DNA from: a virus
Lineage: Duplodnaviria; Heunggongvirae; Uroviricota; Caudoviricetes
Reading direction: 5' to 3' (one strand)
Virus record (IMG/VR): IMGVR_UViG_2645727539_000006
Length of the DNA: 18,011 nt
Shown here: in pieces, positions 12,642 to 15,937 of the stretch
Layout of the letters: every line of letters starts with the position of its first letter
Position numbering within the stretch: the first letter of the stretch is position 1
Position numbers and translations under genes: made by a program
The notes under the pieces: generated by a model
What the model was told of the DNA's origin: nothing
The model's database searches: none
What the model saw: only the letters and a program-made list of their open reading frames with translations

Positions 12642-13135
12642 TGTTGCCCCCACAAACAGACTTCACGCTCAATCTCGCGGCGAGTCATCAGCCCTTTCCA
12701 TTGCTTACCGCCAGCGTATGTCCAGCGCCGTAGCTGATCACATGCGCTTTTGATATCGCCCTGGTTTATTTTGCGAAGAAGCGTCGATGTTCTGAAATTG
12801 CCAGCGCCCACGTTGTAAACGAACGAGTAAAGAGCGCCGCGCGTTGTTTCCGGTATATCGACGTTGATGTACGGGTTAATTTGTCTGGCGACCGTGGCAA
12901 GGTCTTTATTCAGGAGGGCTTTGCATTCTGCTTCGGTATACGTTTTACCGGGCATGATGTCTTTTCCGGTGTGTCCGTGACATACAGTCCATACGCCAAC
13001 GATATCTTTGTATGGTATGTAGCTGACACCTTCCAGACCATCGTTACCACCTGGACCAGTGATGAGCACAGACGCTATGGCAACAGCCCCACCACCAATA
13101 GCAGCTGCAACAGCCTTGCGTAATGACGGCGACAT
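12638..13135 (-). CDS. R: SAR endolysin, phage-21 R21-type lysozyme
   Basis: 165 aa with an N-terminal signal-anchor-release segment ([20 protein letters not shown]) then [27 protein letters not shown]...[29 protein letters not shown]; near-identical to my recollection of phage 21 R. Confidence 0.9.
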
Positions 13136-13341
13136 TATTCACCTCTCGCAGCCTTACGCTTATCTTCTTTAATCTTGAAATAAAGATTTGTCAGATACGT
13201 CAGCAGGCCAAACAGCAGACTTCCCAGCACACCTATTGCCACCCACTGGGACGGAGAGACTTTGTCCAGCAGCTGCAGTAACCAGTATCCCGTCCCCACC
13301 GCTGACGTGGTGTATGACACACCTGTTGTGATTTTTTCCAT
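13135..13341 (-). CDS. S: pinholin, phage-21 S21-type
   Basis: 68 aa, [68 protein letters not shown]; two transmembrane segments and a charged C-terminus, closely resembling S21. The stop overlaps the R start (ATGA). Confidence 0.85.
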
Positions 13342-13385
13342 CTGATGTATGTCTCCGTCACCGCCGACAGAAAATGAAAGTAAAG

Positions 13386-13422
13386 AAAAACAAAAAAGCC
13401 GCCAGTGTCACCCACTGACGGC
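13386..13422 (-). terminator. intrinsic terminator 43 nt upstream of the pinholin start
   Basis: Minus strand GCCGTCAGTG-GGTGA-CACTGGCGGC (10-bp stem, one G-U pair, 5-nt loop) followed by TTTTTTGTTTTTCTTT. Confidence 0.6.
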
Positions 13423-13596
13423 CAACGCCGGGAGCCGTGATTATGGCATTCAGGCTCTGCTAAAAATGCCAGATAACATTCCGGCCTCCCCTGATTCAGG
13501 TTATAAATGACACAATATCTTGACAACATCCGTCACTGTCTGTCAGAAAATGTACTGCCATATAGAAGCAACATGTGAAGTACATCTATCCTTTTG

Positions 13597-13639
13597 AGCC
13601 AGCACCTCTCCACCGAAAGTCAGTGCTGGCTGTTTTTTT
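13597..13639 (+). terminator. plus-strand hairpin plus T-run (module 1 of a paralogous pair), antisense to the late operon
   Basis: AGCCAGCAC (13597-13605) ... GTGCTGGCT (13623-13631) followed by GTTTTTTT; preceded by TTGACA at 13520-13525. Confidence 0.45.
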
Positions 13640-13746
13640 CCTTAATAAGGCATCTGTAACTGAAACAATCCGCATATTGATAATATATTGACAGGCATCA
13701 TTGCTGTCTGTGAAAAATAAGTCTCTACAAACATATAAGGCCTTTT

Positions 13747-13787
13747 AGCCAGCGTCTTCTTTTTCAGGTCAGTCGCTGGCTTTTTTT
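13747..13787 (+). terminator. plus-strand hairpin plus T-run (module 2 of the pair), abutting the nanS stop codon
   Basis: AGCCAGCG (13747-13754) ... CGCTGGCT (13774-13781) followed by TTTTTTT; preceded by TTGACA at 13689-13694 and shares flanking sequence with module 1. Confidence 0.45.
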
Positions 13788-13788
13788 A

Positions 13789-15639
13789 TTATGCTGCCGG
13801 TGCATTTATCTCCAGCATCAGACTTTCTATCTCAACGCCATACGCTGCATTTTTTGTAACATCCGTCAGCGTCAGCGCATTCAGTCCCAGTGTCAGACTG
13901 TCTTTTATAACCTGGAATGCCGGGCCAGCCACTCCATTCAGTTTCGGAGTAACCGTGGCACTGCCGGCGGTGAACACCAGCTCCAGCGTCTGCCAGTCGT
14001 TACCGTAATCGCCGAACTCCCCCAGCTTCGTGTTTCCGGCTTTCCTGTGATGCATCAGATTCACTCTGCCGTCAGTGGTCTGAGTGAAGTACGACATCAG
14101 GAACGGATTACCGGTACCCGTCATCGCCACACCATCAGGAACGGGAGCATCCGTATACAGATAAATCCCCAGCCCGAACTGATTGTTGGTCAGTGCGCCT
14201 GACAGGCGGAACTTACAGGTCAGTCTGCCGCCCTGTGTCAGCAGGGTAATTGCGTCATCCACCGGATGCGTCAGGGACCAGGTTTTATTGCTCTGCTTGG
14301 TGATCTTAAATACACCATCTGACAACTGAATTCCGCCATCCTTAATGCTCCAGCCCTGCGCAGCAGCCTCTCCGGCTGCCGGCAGCAGGGAGATTGTGCG
14401 AACGGACGTATCTGCAGACGGACCCGATGGCGTGTTGCCGCCGGGCGAGGGTTTGATTTCCGGTGCCTTACCACTGATGAAGGCTGAGGTGCGCCCGGCT
14501 GCGTTCAGAATAGCGGTTGCCAGACGATCCGGAATAATGCTCCTGCGCGCCCATGAACTGAAATGTGTCGGGCGGTTTGATGATACCTGGTTTCCATTCG
14601 TTCTCGATGCCGCACCGTAATATCCTGATGCCGGAATATCCGGATCTTCTGCCGGCGCGTTAGTGGCGGTATTGACGCCGTTACCATCTGTCATGAAGGG
14701 CACAAAATAAACGCCCTCACTCTCCCTGTTTTTATACCCGCCGTACACGGTGTCGTACTGGGTAGCGTATGTATTTTTCCAGTAATACGTCGTGTCACCA
14801 CAAACCCACGGCACATCTGCAGCACTGCCACCATGGCACTGCGCGTTAAACACGGAGAGGTCAGCACGAAACTGTGTCAGCATGGCTGTAAACAGCGCAG
14901 GTTGCTGTGCGTGGGTGGCGGCGCTCATGTCAAACTCACCCTGCATCCAGCAGACGGCCAGCAGAACGTTTTTGGGATTTTTCTGCAATGCCGCTTTTGT
15001 GCGGGAAATCAGATCCTGATATAACGGCTTGCCCACCCCCCAGCGTGCCGAATCCTGACTGGCCCCCGTGGACTCGCTGAATGTCCCCTCCGCGCCCTGG
15101 GTAAATGCCGAACCACCACGACAGCATGGTACCAGCAGGATCCCCGCGTTATTCGGGATATACGGGAGCAGTTTTTTGGCAATATGTAAACCCTGACCGA
15201 CACAGCCGTACTGCCCTTTGCTCAGGTCAGCCCTCGGATGATTCAGCGTACTCATATCCTGCACATCATGCAGACAGTGGTCAGCCGGAATAATATCGTT
15301 ATATCTGCAGGCAGCCCCGCCCGGCGTCACTGTACTGCGGCGCGCCAGCTGTTTAATGCGCGGATCCGGAGCATCGTATGAATCCGGCAGCGGAAGCCCT
15401 TCACCGTAAGCCATGGCATTGGACTGCCCGGCCAGTACGATGACGTAGTACCAATCCGGCTCAGATGAAGGGCCGACCTGTGGCTCTCCTTCAATAGCCA
15501 CCGCCTGCATCAGTGTGTACGGCGTAATGGCAACCGGTCCGCCGTATGGCTGCCAGCCCTCTTTCAGTTTGTGTGTCAGCTTTTCCGCAAGGTCTGACGG
15601 CGACGCCGCCCTGACAACATCGTAATGTTTAATCGACAT
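13789..15639 (-). CDS. nanS-p: prophage sialate O-acetylesterase NanS-p-like protein (DUF1737 N-domain + SGNH/SASA esterase + C-terminal domain)
   Basis: 616 aa; N-terminal MSIKHYDVVRAASPSDLAEKLTHKLKEGWQPYGGPVA is DUF1737-like; YYVIVLAGQSNAMAYGE carries the GQSN catalytic-serine motif of sialate O-acetylesterases; sits just upstream of the holin as in Stx and other lambdoid prophages. GGGAG Shine-Dalgarno before the ATG at 15637-15639. Confidence 0.75.
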   Translation of the reverse strand: MSIKHYDVVRAASPSDLAEKLTHKLKEGWQPYGGPVAITPYTLMQAVAIEGEPQVGPSSEPDWYYVIVLAGQSNAMAYGEGLPLPDSYDAPDPRIKQLARRSTVTPGGAACRYNDIIPADHCLHDVQDMSTLNHPRADLSKGQYGCVGQGLHIAKKLLPYIPNNAGILLVPCCRGGSAFTQGAEGTFSESTGASQDSARWGVGKPLYQDLISRTKAALQKNPKNVLLAVCWMQGEFDMSAATHAQQPALFTAMLTQFRADLSVFNAQCHGGSAADVPWVCGDTTYYWKNTYATQYDTVYGGYKNRESEGVYFVPFMTDGNGVNTATNAPAEDPDIPASGYYGAASRTNGNQVSSNRPTHFSSWARRSIIPDRLATAILNAAGRTSAFISGKAPEIKPSPGGNTPSGPSADTSVRTISLLPAAGEAAAQGWSIKDGGIQLSDGVFKITKQSNKTWSLTHPVDDAITLLTQGGRLTCKFRLSGALTNNQFGLGIYLYTDAPVPDGVAMTGTGNPFLMSYFTQTTDGRVNLMHHRKAGNTKLGEFGDYGNDWQTLELVFTAGSATVTPKLNGVAGPAFQVIKDSLTLGLNALTLTDVTKNAAYGVEIESLMLEINAPAA

Positions 15640-15725: not shown

Positions 15726-15752
15726 AAAAAAAAGGCTGCGCAATGCGCAGCC
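15726..15752 (-). terminator. strong intrinsic terminator between the cargo gene and nanS-p
   Basis: Minus strand GGCTGCGC-ATT-GCGCAGCC (8-bp GC-rich stem) followed by 8 T; unidirectional (A-run precedes it on the plus strand). Confidence 0.7.
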
Positions 15753-15937
15753 AGAACTCACAAGGAAAATGATAAAAGGAATAACACTAGTGATGTACGC
15801 ATGGCGCCTCCCGCTAAGTTCTGCAATGATCAAACAGAACTCGCTACGTGCCCTTAAAACTCGATCATTTAGCCCCTCCAAGGAGGATTCACCATGCGGT
15901 TGATTTTTTAATAAACAGTAAACAAAAAAGTCAAGAA

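What the first reader, a model, noticed from the sequence alone, without database searches (positions are those of the whole stretch)
13500..13790. Two tandem paralogous modules (TTGACA ... hairpin + T-run) on the strand opposite the late operon
Between nanS-p and the pinholin, the plus strand carries two related units. Each has a perfect TTGACA (13520-13525; 13689-13694), a conserved CTGTCTGT(C/G)A-AAAAT block, a CCTTTT-AGCCAGC...GCTGGCT hairpin and a run of 7 T. AT-rich -10-like elements (TTATAAAT at 13501-13508; TGATAATAT at 13678-13686) precede each TTGACA, and TATAGA / TATAAG lie between TTGACA and hairpin. A paralogous pair of promoter-like plus terminator units antisense to the late genes suggests two small RNAs of roughly 50-120 nt, or convergent-transcription insulators. 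Unit 1 contains GACAACAUCC, a CA-rich motif of the kind used by phage anti-sRNAs to mimic GcvB targets; that link is speculative and from memory only.
Basis: partly seen in the sequence, partly recalled or inferred. Interest (0 to 1): 0.55.

Follow-up and report, generated by a model that had tools for sequence, protein, structure and literature searches.

The report
Known prophage small RNA PasA locus

Summary
Window 13330-13815 is 100% identical to the pasA locus of EPEC E2348/69 prophage PP2, and window 13440-13800 is 100% identical to phage 434.

Unit 1 is PasA. Pearl Mizrahi et al. 2021 mapped it to what is window 13555-13639 (+), 85 nt, Hfq-dependent and confirmed by northern blot. A minor 236-nt form runs on to 13790, the unit 2 terminator. 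The PasA 5' end lies exactly 30 nt after the TTGACA at 13520-13525.

Unit 2 (about 13723-13788) is a diverged paralogue. A covariance model built without it finds it at 31.8 bits (E about 2e-4). In EHEC Sakai prophage Sp4, an IS629 replaces unit 1, yet unit 2 still carries the Hfq-crosslinking peak EcOnc52. In EPEC RIL-seq its 3' end behaves like an sRNA. An independent unit 2 transcript is likely but not proven.

PasC looks like a unit 1 / unit 2 fusion. The 2026 survey of Pas sRNAs states that pasA copies are not tandem duplicates, so this paralogy seems not to have been noticed.

The GcvB-mimic idea fails. The ACAACAUC motif lies in the promoter, outside the RNA, and PasA had no sRNA partners in RIL-seq.

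Verdict: already known, low interest, with a small new evolutionary detail.

The parts
13501..13519 (+).
   Evidence: Its position relative to TTGACA follows from the sequence. It does not vary in 30 distinct two-unit loci. The function is inferred.
13520..13525 (+). TTGACA, the likely -35 box of the pasA promoter
   Evidence: The published PasA 5' end (window 13555) is exactly 30 nt after the end of this box. It does not vary in 30 distinct loci. The same relation holds for PasC.
13541..13551 (+). TGTCAGAAAAT, the likely extended -10 region of pasA. It reads either as TGn + CAGAAA with an 18-nt spacer, or as GAAAAT with a 20-nt spacer.
   Evidence: Read from the sequence. It is conserved between the units and across loci. 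The hexamer is weak, and the promoter scan did not call it. Inferred.
13555..13639 (+). PasA small RNA, major 85-nt form
   Evidence: 100% identical to NC_011601.1 743499->743415 (-), which is PasA in Table S6 of PMC8550237. Northern blot and Hfq dependence are reported there. Covariance model hit of 108.8 bits.
13598..13607 (+). Published PasA seed GCCAGCACCU, in the 5' arm of the terminator stem
   Evidence: Fig. S5 text of PMC8550237; discussed in the Zhu et al. preprint.
13597..13639 (+). Terminator 1: 9-bp stem (13597-13605 with 13623-13631), then a G, then U7
   Evidence: Fold of -16.3 kcal/mol, z -3.5. Annotated as a terminator in phage 434 record OL657226.1. Compensatory changes among variants. 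The G that interrupts the U tract fits partial read-through (inference).
13555..13790 (+). PasA minor 236-nt form, produced by read-through of terminator 1 to terminator 2
   Evidence: Table S6 of PMC8550237 gives the same start, with the minor end at 743264, which is window 13790.
13688..13693 (+). TTGACA, the likely -35 box of unit 2
   Evidence: Does not vary across loci. Retained with about 22 nt of upstream sequence where insertion sequences or rearrangements removed unit 1.
13709..13718 (+). TGTGAAAAAT, the likely extended -10 region of unit 2
   Evidence: Same register as in unit 1. Conserved in the diverged plasmid copy L086. Inferred.
13723..13788 (+). Unit 2 RNA (predicted about 65 nt; EcOnc52-like), a diverged PasA/PasC paralogue. 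The 5' end is predicted, not mapped.
   Evidence: The model built without it hits 13708-13789 at 31.8 bits, E about 2e-4. EcOnc52 in Sakai Sp4 has its 5' boundary at 1182075, against a predicted start of 1182074, with unit 1 absent. The RIL-seq feature pasA.E2348C_0688.IGR had 5 partners and 173 fragments, always as RNA2.
13747..13787 (+). Terminator 2: stem 13747-13754 with 13774-13781, then an uninterrupted U7 tract that abuts the nanS-p stop codon (13789-13791)
   Evidence: Fold of -16.5 kcal/mol, z -6.5. Terminator scan hit. Annotated as a terminator in phage 434. A RIL-seq chimera fragment maps to 13760-13787.
13811..13821 (-). CUGAUGCUGGA in the 3' end of the nanS-p coding sequence, matching the PasA target motif
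   Evidence: Listed among PasA motif-bearing RIL-seq targets (E2348C_0688 and its paralogue E2348C_1246) in PMC8550237. Sequence read. Any regulatory effect is untested.

Best explanation
The region is the pasA locus of a lambdoid prophage. It lies between the sialate O-acetylesterase gene (nanS-p) and the pinholin gene S and is transcribed against the late operon.

Unit 1 encodes PasA, an 85-nt Hfq-dependent base-pairing small RNA. It most likely starts at a sigma-70 promoter whose -35 box is the TTGACA at 13520-13525. It ends at an intrinsic terminator whose 5' stem arm carries the published seed GCCAGCACCU. PasA acts in trans on mRNAs that carry a CUGRUGCUGG-like motif, as shown by others with RIL-seq.

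Terminator 1 is leaky because a G interrupts its U tract. Some transcripts therefore run on to terminator 2 and give the 236-nt minor form.

Unit 2 is an old tandem copy of the same module: -35 box, CTGTCTGT...AAAAT box, short body, CCUUUU-AGCCAGC hairpin and U7. It supplies that second terminator. It probably also makes its own Hfq-bound RNA of about 65 nt (EcOnc52 in EHEC), with a slightly different potential seed, GCCAGCGUCU.

Recombination between the two units produces single-unit loci. PasC appears to be a unit 1 promoter and body joined to a unit 2-type terminator.

Shown: the sequence identity, the structure, the paralogy and the published RNA ends. Inferred: promoter use, the cause of read-through, independent unit 2 transcription and the origin of PasC.
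For: Identity:
- 100% identity over window 13330-13815 to E2348/69 PP2.
- PasA coordinates, sizes, probe and Hfq dependence come from PMC8550237.
- The mapped 5' end equals the TTGACA end + 30. PasC starts at the same register.
- The neighbouring genes are annotated as SASA esterase and class II holin.
- The phage 434 record, identical over the window 13440-13800 stretch compared, annotates both hairpins as terminators on this strand.
- PasD2 sits 2,171 nt away at 15897->15726. This is the 'about 2,170 bp pasD2-esterase-pasA' arrangement reported 248 times.

Structure and paralogy:
- Both hairpins fold significantly well.
- Across 9 hairpin variants, 3 of 9 stem pairs change on both sides and 93.8% of cells pair, against 21-48% when the partner is slid.
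- Unit similarity has z = 9.
- A model built from unit 1 / PasC-type sequences finds unit 2 at 31.8 bits, E about 2e-4. It is the only other significant hit in 18 kb.

Unit 2 on its own:
- Sakai Sp4 lacks unit 1 because of IS629, yet has the Hfq CRAC peak EcOnc52. Its 5' boundary is 1 nt from the predicted start.
- In RIL-seq, unit 2 fragments are always RNA2, with 5 partners.
- Unit 2 survives without unit 1 in several independent rearrangements and on plasmids.

Origin of single-unit loci:
- L155 carries a unit 2 body with the PasC-type hairpin.
- L179 carries the L013-type hairpin in a two-unit locus.
Against: - No experimental transcription start site for either unit could be retrieved here. 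The PasA 5' end comes from RNA-seq coverage, and the 2026 preprint says it arises by processing of a longer transcript.
- The -10 hexamers are weak (3-4 of 6), and the promoter scan did not call either promoter.
- CRAC boundaries are imprecise. EcOnc51 is shifted by 20-28 nt relative to PasA, so the EcOnc52 match may be luck. In Sp4, transcription could also come out of IS629.
- Unit 2 fragments are about 30-fold rarer than PasA fragments in RIL-seq (173 against 5,099). They could all derive from the 236-nt form.
- Unit 2 has decayed in at least one locus, L087.
- All copies are closely related and phage-borne, so conservation says little about selection.
- The model included PasC terminators, which I argue are unit 2 alleles. 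That makes the test partly circular.
Confidence: 0.8

Rival explanations
1. Unit 2 is not a gene of its own. It is a decaying duplicate whose only role is to act as a back-up terminator. It stops PasA read-through before it runs antisense into nanS-p, and all Hfq-bound unit 2 fragments come from the 236-nt PasA isoform.
For: - The 236-nt form shares the PasA 5' end.
- Unit 2 RIL-seq fragments are few, and the one whose coordinates were retrieved maps to the 3' end.
- Unit 2 has decayed in L087.
- No northern blot exists for EcOnc52.
Against: - Sakai Sp4 has unit 2 but not unit 1, and still shows an Hfq CRAC peak that starts 1 nt from the predicted start.
- The -35 to -10 stretch of unit 2 is unchanged even in the 90%-identical plasmid copy, whereas the body and stem have changed.
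- Unit 2 is kept, with about 22 nt upstream of TTGACA, in several independent unit 1 losses.
Confidence: 0.3
2. The main function is in cis. The antisense transcripts or the convergent transcription modulate the late mRNA at the nanS-p / S junction. This could work through RNase III cleavage of the duplex or through transcriptional interference. The effect would be to tune holin or esterase expression, or to insulate the moron.
For: - The 236-nt RNA is fully complementary to the late transcript between nanS-p and S (read from the sequence).
- RIL-seq recovered PasA chimeras with the 3' ends of both nanS-p paralogues, and late-strand fragments from this intergenic region.
- A late-strand terminator-like hairpin at 13423-13397 also brackets the moron.
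Against: - PasA has 41 RIL-seq partners, mostly core-genome mRNAs that share a motif complementary to its seed. That is typical of a trans-acting sRNA.
- Unit 2 and PasA copies persist where nanS-p or S are truncated.
- No data bear on late-gene expression.
Confidence: 0.12
3. The hairpins serve the minus (late) strand, as 3' stabilisers or processing sites of the nanS-p mRNA. On this view the + strand promoter-like boxes are fortuitous.
For: The reverse complements also fold well (-20.8 and -15.5 kcal/mol) and lie just after the nanS-p stop codon.
Against: - On the minus strand the stems are followed by CAAAAGG / UAAAAGG, not a U run. The terminator polarity is therefore +.
- The + strand RNAs were detected by northern blot, RNA-seq, RIL-seq and CRAC.
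- The phage 434 annotators also placed the terminators on this strand.
Confidence: 0.03
4. Unit 1 is an anti-sRNA (sponge) of the AgvB type that mimics a GcvB target.
For: An 8-nt perfect complement to the GcvB R1 region (ACAACATC, 13523-13530) exists. Lambdoid prophages do encode such anti-sRNAs.
Against: - The motif overlaps the -35 box and is upstream of the mapped 5' end, so it is not in PasA.
- Duplex energies with GcvB R1 are no better than for shuffled sequence.
- PasA, PasC and the unit 2 region each have 0 sRNA partners in RIL-seq.
- There is no Rfam AgvB or AsxR match.
- Size and sequence differ from the 51-60-nt anti-sRNA class.
Confidence: 0.02

Closest known systems
PasA (pathogenicity-associated sRNA A) of EPEC E2348/69; Pearl Mizrahi et al. 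2021, Sci Adv (PMC8550237)
   Same: Unit 1 is identical in sequence. It has the same flanking genes, strand, 85-nt and 236-nt forms, terminator and seed.
   Different: Nothing differs for unit 1. The paper treats the unit 2 stretch only as the 3' part of the minor form and as an 'IGR' feature.
PasC of E2348/69 PP5, and the PasA/PasC family described by Zhu, Shabalina and Storz 2026 (bioRxiv 10.64898/2026.05.13.724894)
   Same: The promoter region and the start of the 5' body match unit 1. The terminator is of the unit 2 type. It abuts the esterase stop codon exactly as unit 2 does.
   Different: PasC loci have one unit and this window has two. The preprint states that pasA copies are never closer than 22 kb and are not tandem duplicates, so it did not recognise unit 2 as a paralogue.
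EcOnc51 / EcOnc52, Hfq-CRAC candidate sRNAs of EHEC Sakai (Tree et al. 2014, PMC4104026)
   Same: EcOnc51 (Sp12) overlies unit 1. EcOnc52 (Sp4) overlies unit 2.
   Different: They are known only as crosslinking peaks, with no northern blot and no function. The Sp12 unit 1 has the PasA-2-type 5' body.
AgvB / AsxR prophage anti-sRNAs (Rfam RF02702, RF02703)
   Same: They are Hfq-binding, prophage late-region 'moron' sRNAs transcribed against the late genes. They combine a variable 5' part with a conserved 3' part.
   Different: The sequence is unrelated and there is no Rfam match. They are 51-60 nt and sit just after PR' / stx rather than between nanS-p and S. They act on sRNAs, whereas PasA has only mRNA partners.
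Tandem duplicated sRNA genes such as OmrA/OmrB or PrrF1/PrrF2 (from established knowledge)
   Same: Two adjacent paralogous sRNA units, each with its own promoter-like box and terminator. Read-through gives a longer species, as with PrrH.
   Different: Here the copies are much more diverged in the body, and independent expression of the second is unproven.

Membership tests
PasA sRNA | Sequence match to the E2348/69 pasA gene (NC_011601.1 743499->743415) | tested here: met
   85 of 85 nt are identical, and the whole intergenic region is identical.
PasA sRNA | Located between the sialate esterase gene and the holin/lysozyme genes, on the opposite strand | tested here: met
   ORFs 13789..15639 (-) and 13135..13341 (-). 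RefSeq names for the identical sequence are SASA esterase and class II holin.
PasA sRNA | 3' stem-loop followed by a U tract; seed GCCAGCACCU in the stem | tested here: met
   Fold. The seed is at 13598-13607.
PasA sRNA | Hfq-dependent accumulation of an RNA of about 85 nt | not testable with these tools
   Reported for the identical sequence in PMC8550237 (northern blot, hfq mutant). No expression data exist for this window's host.
PasA/PasC family (unit 2 as a member) | Can be aligned to PasA/PasC in sequence and terminator structure | tested here: met
   Model R1, built without unit 2, hits 13708-13789 at 31.8 bits, E about 2e-4. Pairwise z = 9. Caveat: the PasC terminators in the model are unit 2-like.
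PasA/PasC family (unit 2 as a member) | BLAST-level similarity over more than 75% of the query, the criterion used in the 2026 survey | tested here: not met
   Unit 1 and unit 2 blastn searches gave different sets of places (2,850 against 2,304). The survey found no pasA pair closer than 22 kb.
PasA/PasC family (unit 2 as a member) | Its own transcript with a defined 5' end, bound by Hfq | tested here: inconclusive
   EcOnc52 in Sp4 without unit 1 and RNA2-only RIL-seq fragments favour it. No TSS data or northern blot were available.
AgvB/AsxR anti-sRNAs | Match to Rfam RF02702 or RF02703 | tested here: not met
   No hit at the gathering threshold in the window, and none at E <= 10 in 13300-13900.
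AgvB/AsxR anti-sRNAs | 51-60 nt with a 5' variable region that mimics the target of a core sRNA | tested here: not met
   PasA is 85 nt. The GcvB-complementary octamer lies outside the RNA. Duplex energies are no better than for shuffles. RIL-seq found 0 sRNA partners.
Rho-independent terminator | GC-rich stem followed directly by a U run on the transcribed strand | tested here: met
   Both units on the + strand. On the - strand no U run follows.
Sigma-70 promoter | -35 and -10 hexamers with a 16-18-nt spacer, and a start about 7 nt after the -10 | tested here: inconclusive
   The -35 is perfect and the mapped PasA 5' end is at the expected +30. But the -10 is weak (CAGAAA with TG at an 18-nt spacer, or GAAAAT at 20 nt), and the scan did not call it.

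The most novel reading that the evidence does not exclude
Unit 2 is a separate, so far unnamed sRNA gene of the PasA/PasC family, with its own promoter and a distinct seed (GCCAGCGUCU). The family evolves by unequal recombination between the two tandem units, which shuffles 5' bodies and terminators. On this reading PasC is a unit 1 / unit 2 fusion, and single-unit loci are deletion products.
Probability: 0.5. Interest if true: 0.3.

Novelty: already known. Interest (0 to 1): 0.2.

Why it matters
PasA belongs to a set of prophage sRNAs that link phage-borne elements to host and virulence gene networks in EPEC and EHEC. Its reported partners include bfp and type III secretion transcripts.

For a genome scan, the useful result is that this intergenic region is explained and needs no new hypothesis. 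RefSeq lists no feature under unit 1 and Rfam has no model, so it looks like an unexplained gap.

The small addition is the evidence that the locus is a tandem pair and that PasC is a recombinant of the two units. This would revise the published statement that pasA copies never arise by tandem duplication. It also points to one more Hfq-bound RNA, with a different seed, present in about 680 of 5,426 complete E. coli genomes.

Tried and rejected
- **Rfam.** Scans of the whole window at the gathering threshold and of 13300-13900 at E <= 10 gave only chance-level eukaryotic snoRNA/snRNA hits.
- **GcvB mimicry.** An 8-nt complement was found, but it lies in the promoter. Duplex energies of PasA, unit 2 and the promoter segment with GcvB R1 were no better than for shuffles. 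My first attempt failed because the fetched gcvB segment lacked the start I searched for.
- **HnrS.** This 66-nt multicopy prophage sRNA (PMC13502914) looked like a candidate for unit 2 because of its size and copy number. Its copies (EcOnc10-12) map about 3 kb away in Sp12, and the sequence has no match in this intergenic region.
- **Published start-site data.** The Sy et al. 2020 supplement is not held. The EDL933 TSS supplements contain no sequence strings matching either promoter box.
- **PasA 5' hairpin.** The small hairpin in the PasA body predicted by the single-sequence fold is not kept in PasA-2-type bodies, so it was left out of the model.
- **Species range.** A species-wide scan with the promoter-box pattern gave 63 loci. 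Only the Escherichia albertii locus carries the paired boxes at unit spacing, and its sequence is a near-identical two-unit locus. The other 62 loci are single hits in unrelated taxa and match my chance estimate of about 65.
- **Duplex prediction with the nanS-p 3' end.** The result was uninformative for PasA (not better than shuffles) and marginal for unit 2 (2.3% of shuffles did as well).
Full report
**1. The observation**

- A perfect TTGACA lies at 13520-13525 and a second at 13688-13693.
- Each TTGACA is followed after 10-11 nt by CTGTCTGT(C/G)A-AAAAT.
- After that come a short body and a CCTTTT-AGCCAGC...GCTGGCT hairpin (stems 13597-13631 and 13747-13781).
- Each unit ends in seven T (13633-13639 and 13781-13787).

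The two units resemble each other far more than chance allows. Their global alignment scores 38, against 7.5 +/- 3.4 in 500 dinucleotide shuffles (z = 9).

Both hairpins fold significantly well on the + strand (-16.3 and -16.5 kcal/mol; z -3.5 and -6.5). Only on the + strand does a U run follow them, so they have the polarity of + strand intrinsic terminators.

The flanking ORFs are 13789..15639 (-) and 13135..13341 (-). For identical sequence, RefSeq names them SASA-family carbohydrate esterase (nanS-p) and class II holin. The rest of the window is a lambda-like late and structural region.

**2. Identity of unit 1**

Window 13330-13815 is 100% identical to E. coli O127:H6 E2348/69 prophage PP2 (NC_011601.1). 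Window 13440-13800 is 100% identical to phage 434 (OL657226.1).

Table S6 of Pearl Mizrahi et al. 2021 (PMC8550237) places the sRNA PasA on the minus strand of that genome.
- The start is at 743499.
- The major end is at 743415, giving 85 nt.
- The minor end is at 743264, giving 236 nt.
- On the window these are 13555-13639 (+) and 13555-13790 (+).

That paper reports several properties of PasA.
- Northern detection and Hfq-dependent stability.
- 41 RIL-seq partners.
- A seed, GCCAGCACCU, complementary to a motif shared by its targets.
- Homologues in EHEC called EcOnc51 and EcOnc52, from the Hfq CRAC study of Tree et al. 2014.

A 2026 preprint from the Storz laboratory surveys PasA-D across genomes. 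It describes exactly this arrangement: pasD2, esterase, pasA, holin. PasD2 is indeed present at window 15897->15726 (-), 100% identical. It lies 2,171 nt from the PasA start, matching the 'about 2,170 bp' arrangement seen 248 times.

Unit 1 is therefore a known, experimentally supported sRNA gene. RefSeq lists no feature under unit 1, only the adjoining protein gene under unit 2, and Rfam has no model for either. That explains why the region looked unexplained.

**3. The promoter**

- The published PasA 5' end (13555) lies exactly 30 nt after the last base of TTGACA. That is where a sigma-70 start is expected from a -35 hexamer.
- PasC in prophage PP5 starts at the same register behind an identical box.
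- The -10 is weak. It reads either as TG-n-CAGAAA with an 18-nt spacer or as GAAAAT with a 20-nt spacer, and unit 2 has the same layout. The simple promoter scan missed both sites.
They may act as UP-like sequences (inference).
- The 2026 preprint says the PasA 5' end arises by cleavage of a longer transcript. However, Table S6 gives the long and short forms the same 5' end and different 3' ends. I therefore read the longer species as terminator read-through, not as a 5' precursor. This is an inference, and no primary-end data could be retrieved.
- A G separates the stem of terminator 1 from its U tract, whereas terminator 2 has an uninterrupted tract. This fits partial read-through at terminator 1, an inference from the general rules for intrinsic terminators.

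**4. Unit 2**

Unit 2 is the 3' part of the 236-nt form. Several results suggest it is more than that.

(a) In EHEC Sakai prophage Sp4, an IS629 replaces everything upstream of about 22 nt before the unit 2 TTGACA, so unit 1 and its promoter are absent. The Hfq CRAC peak EcOnc52 nevertheless lies there (1181998-1182075, minus strand). Its 5' boundary is 1 nt from the start predicted from the TTGACA (1182074).

(b) In EPEC RIL-seq, the feature 'pasA.E2348C_0688.IGR' has five partners and 173 chimeric fragments. All of them have the feature as the second RNA, which is the sRNA-like position. One chimera, with escD, maps to window 13760-13787.

(c) Unit 2 persists without unit 1 after several independent rearrangements (L003, L033, L083). 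It also persists on plasmids of about 82-93 kb: about 100 plasmid places for unit 2 against 8 for unit 1. In the one 90%-identical plasmid copy examined (L086), the -35 to -10 stretch is unchanged while the body and stem have substitutions.

(d) A covariance model built only from unit 1 and PasC-type sequences finds unit 2 at 31.8 bits (E about 2e-4). It is the only other significant hit in the window.

The caveats are these.
- CRAC boundaries are fuzzy. EcOnc51 is offset by 20-28 nt from PasA.
- Transcription in Sp4 might come from the insertion sequence.
- Unit 2 fragments are about 30 times rarer than PasA fragments.
- Unit 2 has decayed in at least one locus (L087).
- The model contains PasC terminators, which I argue are unit 2 alleles.

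I put independent transcription of unit 2 at roughly 55-60%.

**5. Comparative picture**

- In complete E. coli genomes, unit 1-like sequence occurs at 2,850 places in 692 of 5,426 genomes. Unit 2 occurs at 2,304 places in 677 genomes.
- Among one-per-species genomes, only Escherichia albertii carries the paired boxes, in a near-identical two-unit locus. The other 62 pattern hits equal my chance estimate of about 65.
- In 30 distinct two-unit loci from viral contigs, both promoter-box regions are unchanged apart from one polymorphic position in the unit 1 spacer (13529). Both stems show only rare single changes. Variation is concentrated in the PasA 5' body (13552-13595) and in T-run lengths.
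- At least six different 5' bodies sit behind the same unit 1 promoter, whereas the unit 2 body is nearly fixed.
- Because all copies are recent and phage-borne, this pattern describes the family but is weak evidence for selection.
- Across nine hairpin variants, three of nine stem pairs change on both sides (C-G/U-A, A-U/G-C). In total 93.8% of cells pair, against 21-48% when partners are slid. A one-sided intermediate occurs in a degraded remnant (L088).

**6. Origin of single-unit loci**

- PasC has the unit 1 promoter and 5' body, and a terminator that shares AGCCAGCGUC...CGCUGGCUUUUUUU-AUUAUGC with unit 2.
- Locus L155 has two units, and its unit 2 carries the PasC-type hairpin. Locus L179 has two units with the L013-type unit 1 hairpin. 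L013 and L054 have that hairpin fused directly to the esterase stop codon.
- The simplest reading is that single-unit loci arise by recombination between the repeated CCUUUU-AGCCAGC / GCUGGCU-U7 segments of a two-unit locus. The reverse, duplication of a single unit, cannot be excluded.
- The 2026 preprint states that the closest pasA copies are 22 kb apart and are not tandem duplicates. The paralogy of unit 2 therefore appears not to have been recognised. That is the only new element here.

**7. How it works**

Shown by others on identical sequence:
- PasA is an Hfq-dependent sRNA with many mRNA partners.
- Its seed is in the 5' arm of its terminator.

Inferred here:
- Constitutive or lysogen-phase transcription starts from a -35-driven promoter against the late operon.
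- Termination at a leaky first terminator and a tight second one keeps antisense transcription out of nanS-p.
- A second sRNA of about 65 nt, with the altered seed GCCAGCGUCU, comes from unit 2.

A cis role at the nanS-p / S junction is possible. The 236-nt RNA is fully complementary to the late transcript there, and PasA forms chimeras with the nanS-p 3' end, which carries CUGAUGCUGGA at 13821->13811. This role is untested.

**8. Rejected ideas**

- **GcvB mimicry.** The only complement (ACAACAUC, 13523-13530) overlaps the -35 box and is outside the RNA. Duplex energies are no better than for shuffles. PasA, PasC and unit 2 have no sRNA partners. There is no AgvB or AsxR Rfam match.
- **Minus-strand stabilisers only.** This is contradicted by the terminator polarity and by the published + strand RNAs.
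- **HnrS.** This is a different multicopy prophage sRNA located elsewhere.

**9. Verdict**

PasA was published in 2021, was first seen as EcOnc51/52 in 2014, and was surveyed in 2026. Interest is low. The tandem-paralogue and recombination picture is a modest refinement that still needs start-site data.

Noticed in passing
window 15726-15897 (- strand): A 172-nt stretch 100% identical to the published sRNA PasD2 of E2348/69 lies just upstream of nanS-p, in the late-gene direction. The window therefore carries the known pasD2-esterase-pasA arrangement.
   Followed up: partly
window 13387-13423 (- strand): A strong terminator-like hairpin with a T run (GGCCGTCAGTGGGTGACACTGGCGGC + TTTTTTGTTTT) sits on the late strand between the sRNA units and the holin start. 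The phage 434 record also annotates it as a terminator. It could keep moron transcription out of the holin gene in lysogens.
   Followed up: no
window 13811-13821 (- strand), inside the nanS-p 3' end: The motif CUGAUGCUGGA, complementary to the PasA seed, lies about 20 nt before the nanS-p stop codon. Both nanS-p paralogues of E2348/69 are listed among PasA RIL-seq targets. The prophage's sRNA may therefore pair with its neighbour's mRNA.
   Followed up: partly
loci L003, L033, L035/L071, L165, L191, L192 (homologues of window 13590-13730): Sequence homologous to the window breaks off within or next to the two units at different points. The upstream sequence is annotated as IS629/IS1203 in Sakai Sp4 (L003). 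In most of the other loci it looks like insertion-sequence DNA but was not checked. The region may be a hot spot for IS insertion in prophages.
   Followed up: no
window 13633-13639 and 13781-13787, compared across loci L006-L211: The T runs of both terminators vary between 6 and 8 T among otherwise near-identical loci. Unit 2 also has a TT indel in its loop and a CT insertion before its T run. These may be real slippage polymorphisms or assembly errors.
   Followed up: no
literature: bioRxiv 10.64898/2026.05.13.724894 versus Table S6 of PMC8550237: The preprint says the PasA 5' end is made by cleavage of a longer transcript. The original table gives the 85-nt and 236-nt forms the same 5' end and different 3' ends, which points to read-through rather than 5' processing.
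   Followed up: partly
plasmid NZ_CP027339.1 81572-81779 (locus L086 2501-2708): A 90%-identical copy of unit 2, attached to a truncated nanS-p remnant, sits on a 93-kb plasmid next to IS600. There are about 100 plasmid places for unit 2 in complete E. coli genomes, but only this locus was examined, so the shared context is unverified.
   Followed up: partly
window 13550-13597 (+ strand): A 15-codon ORF (MYCHIEATCEVHLSF*) starts 5 nt upstream of the mapped PasA 5' end. It would be translatable only from a longer transcript.
   Followed up: no
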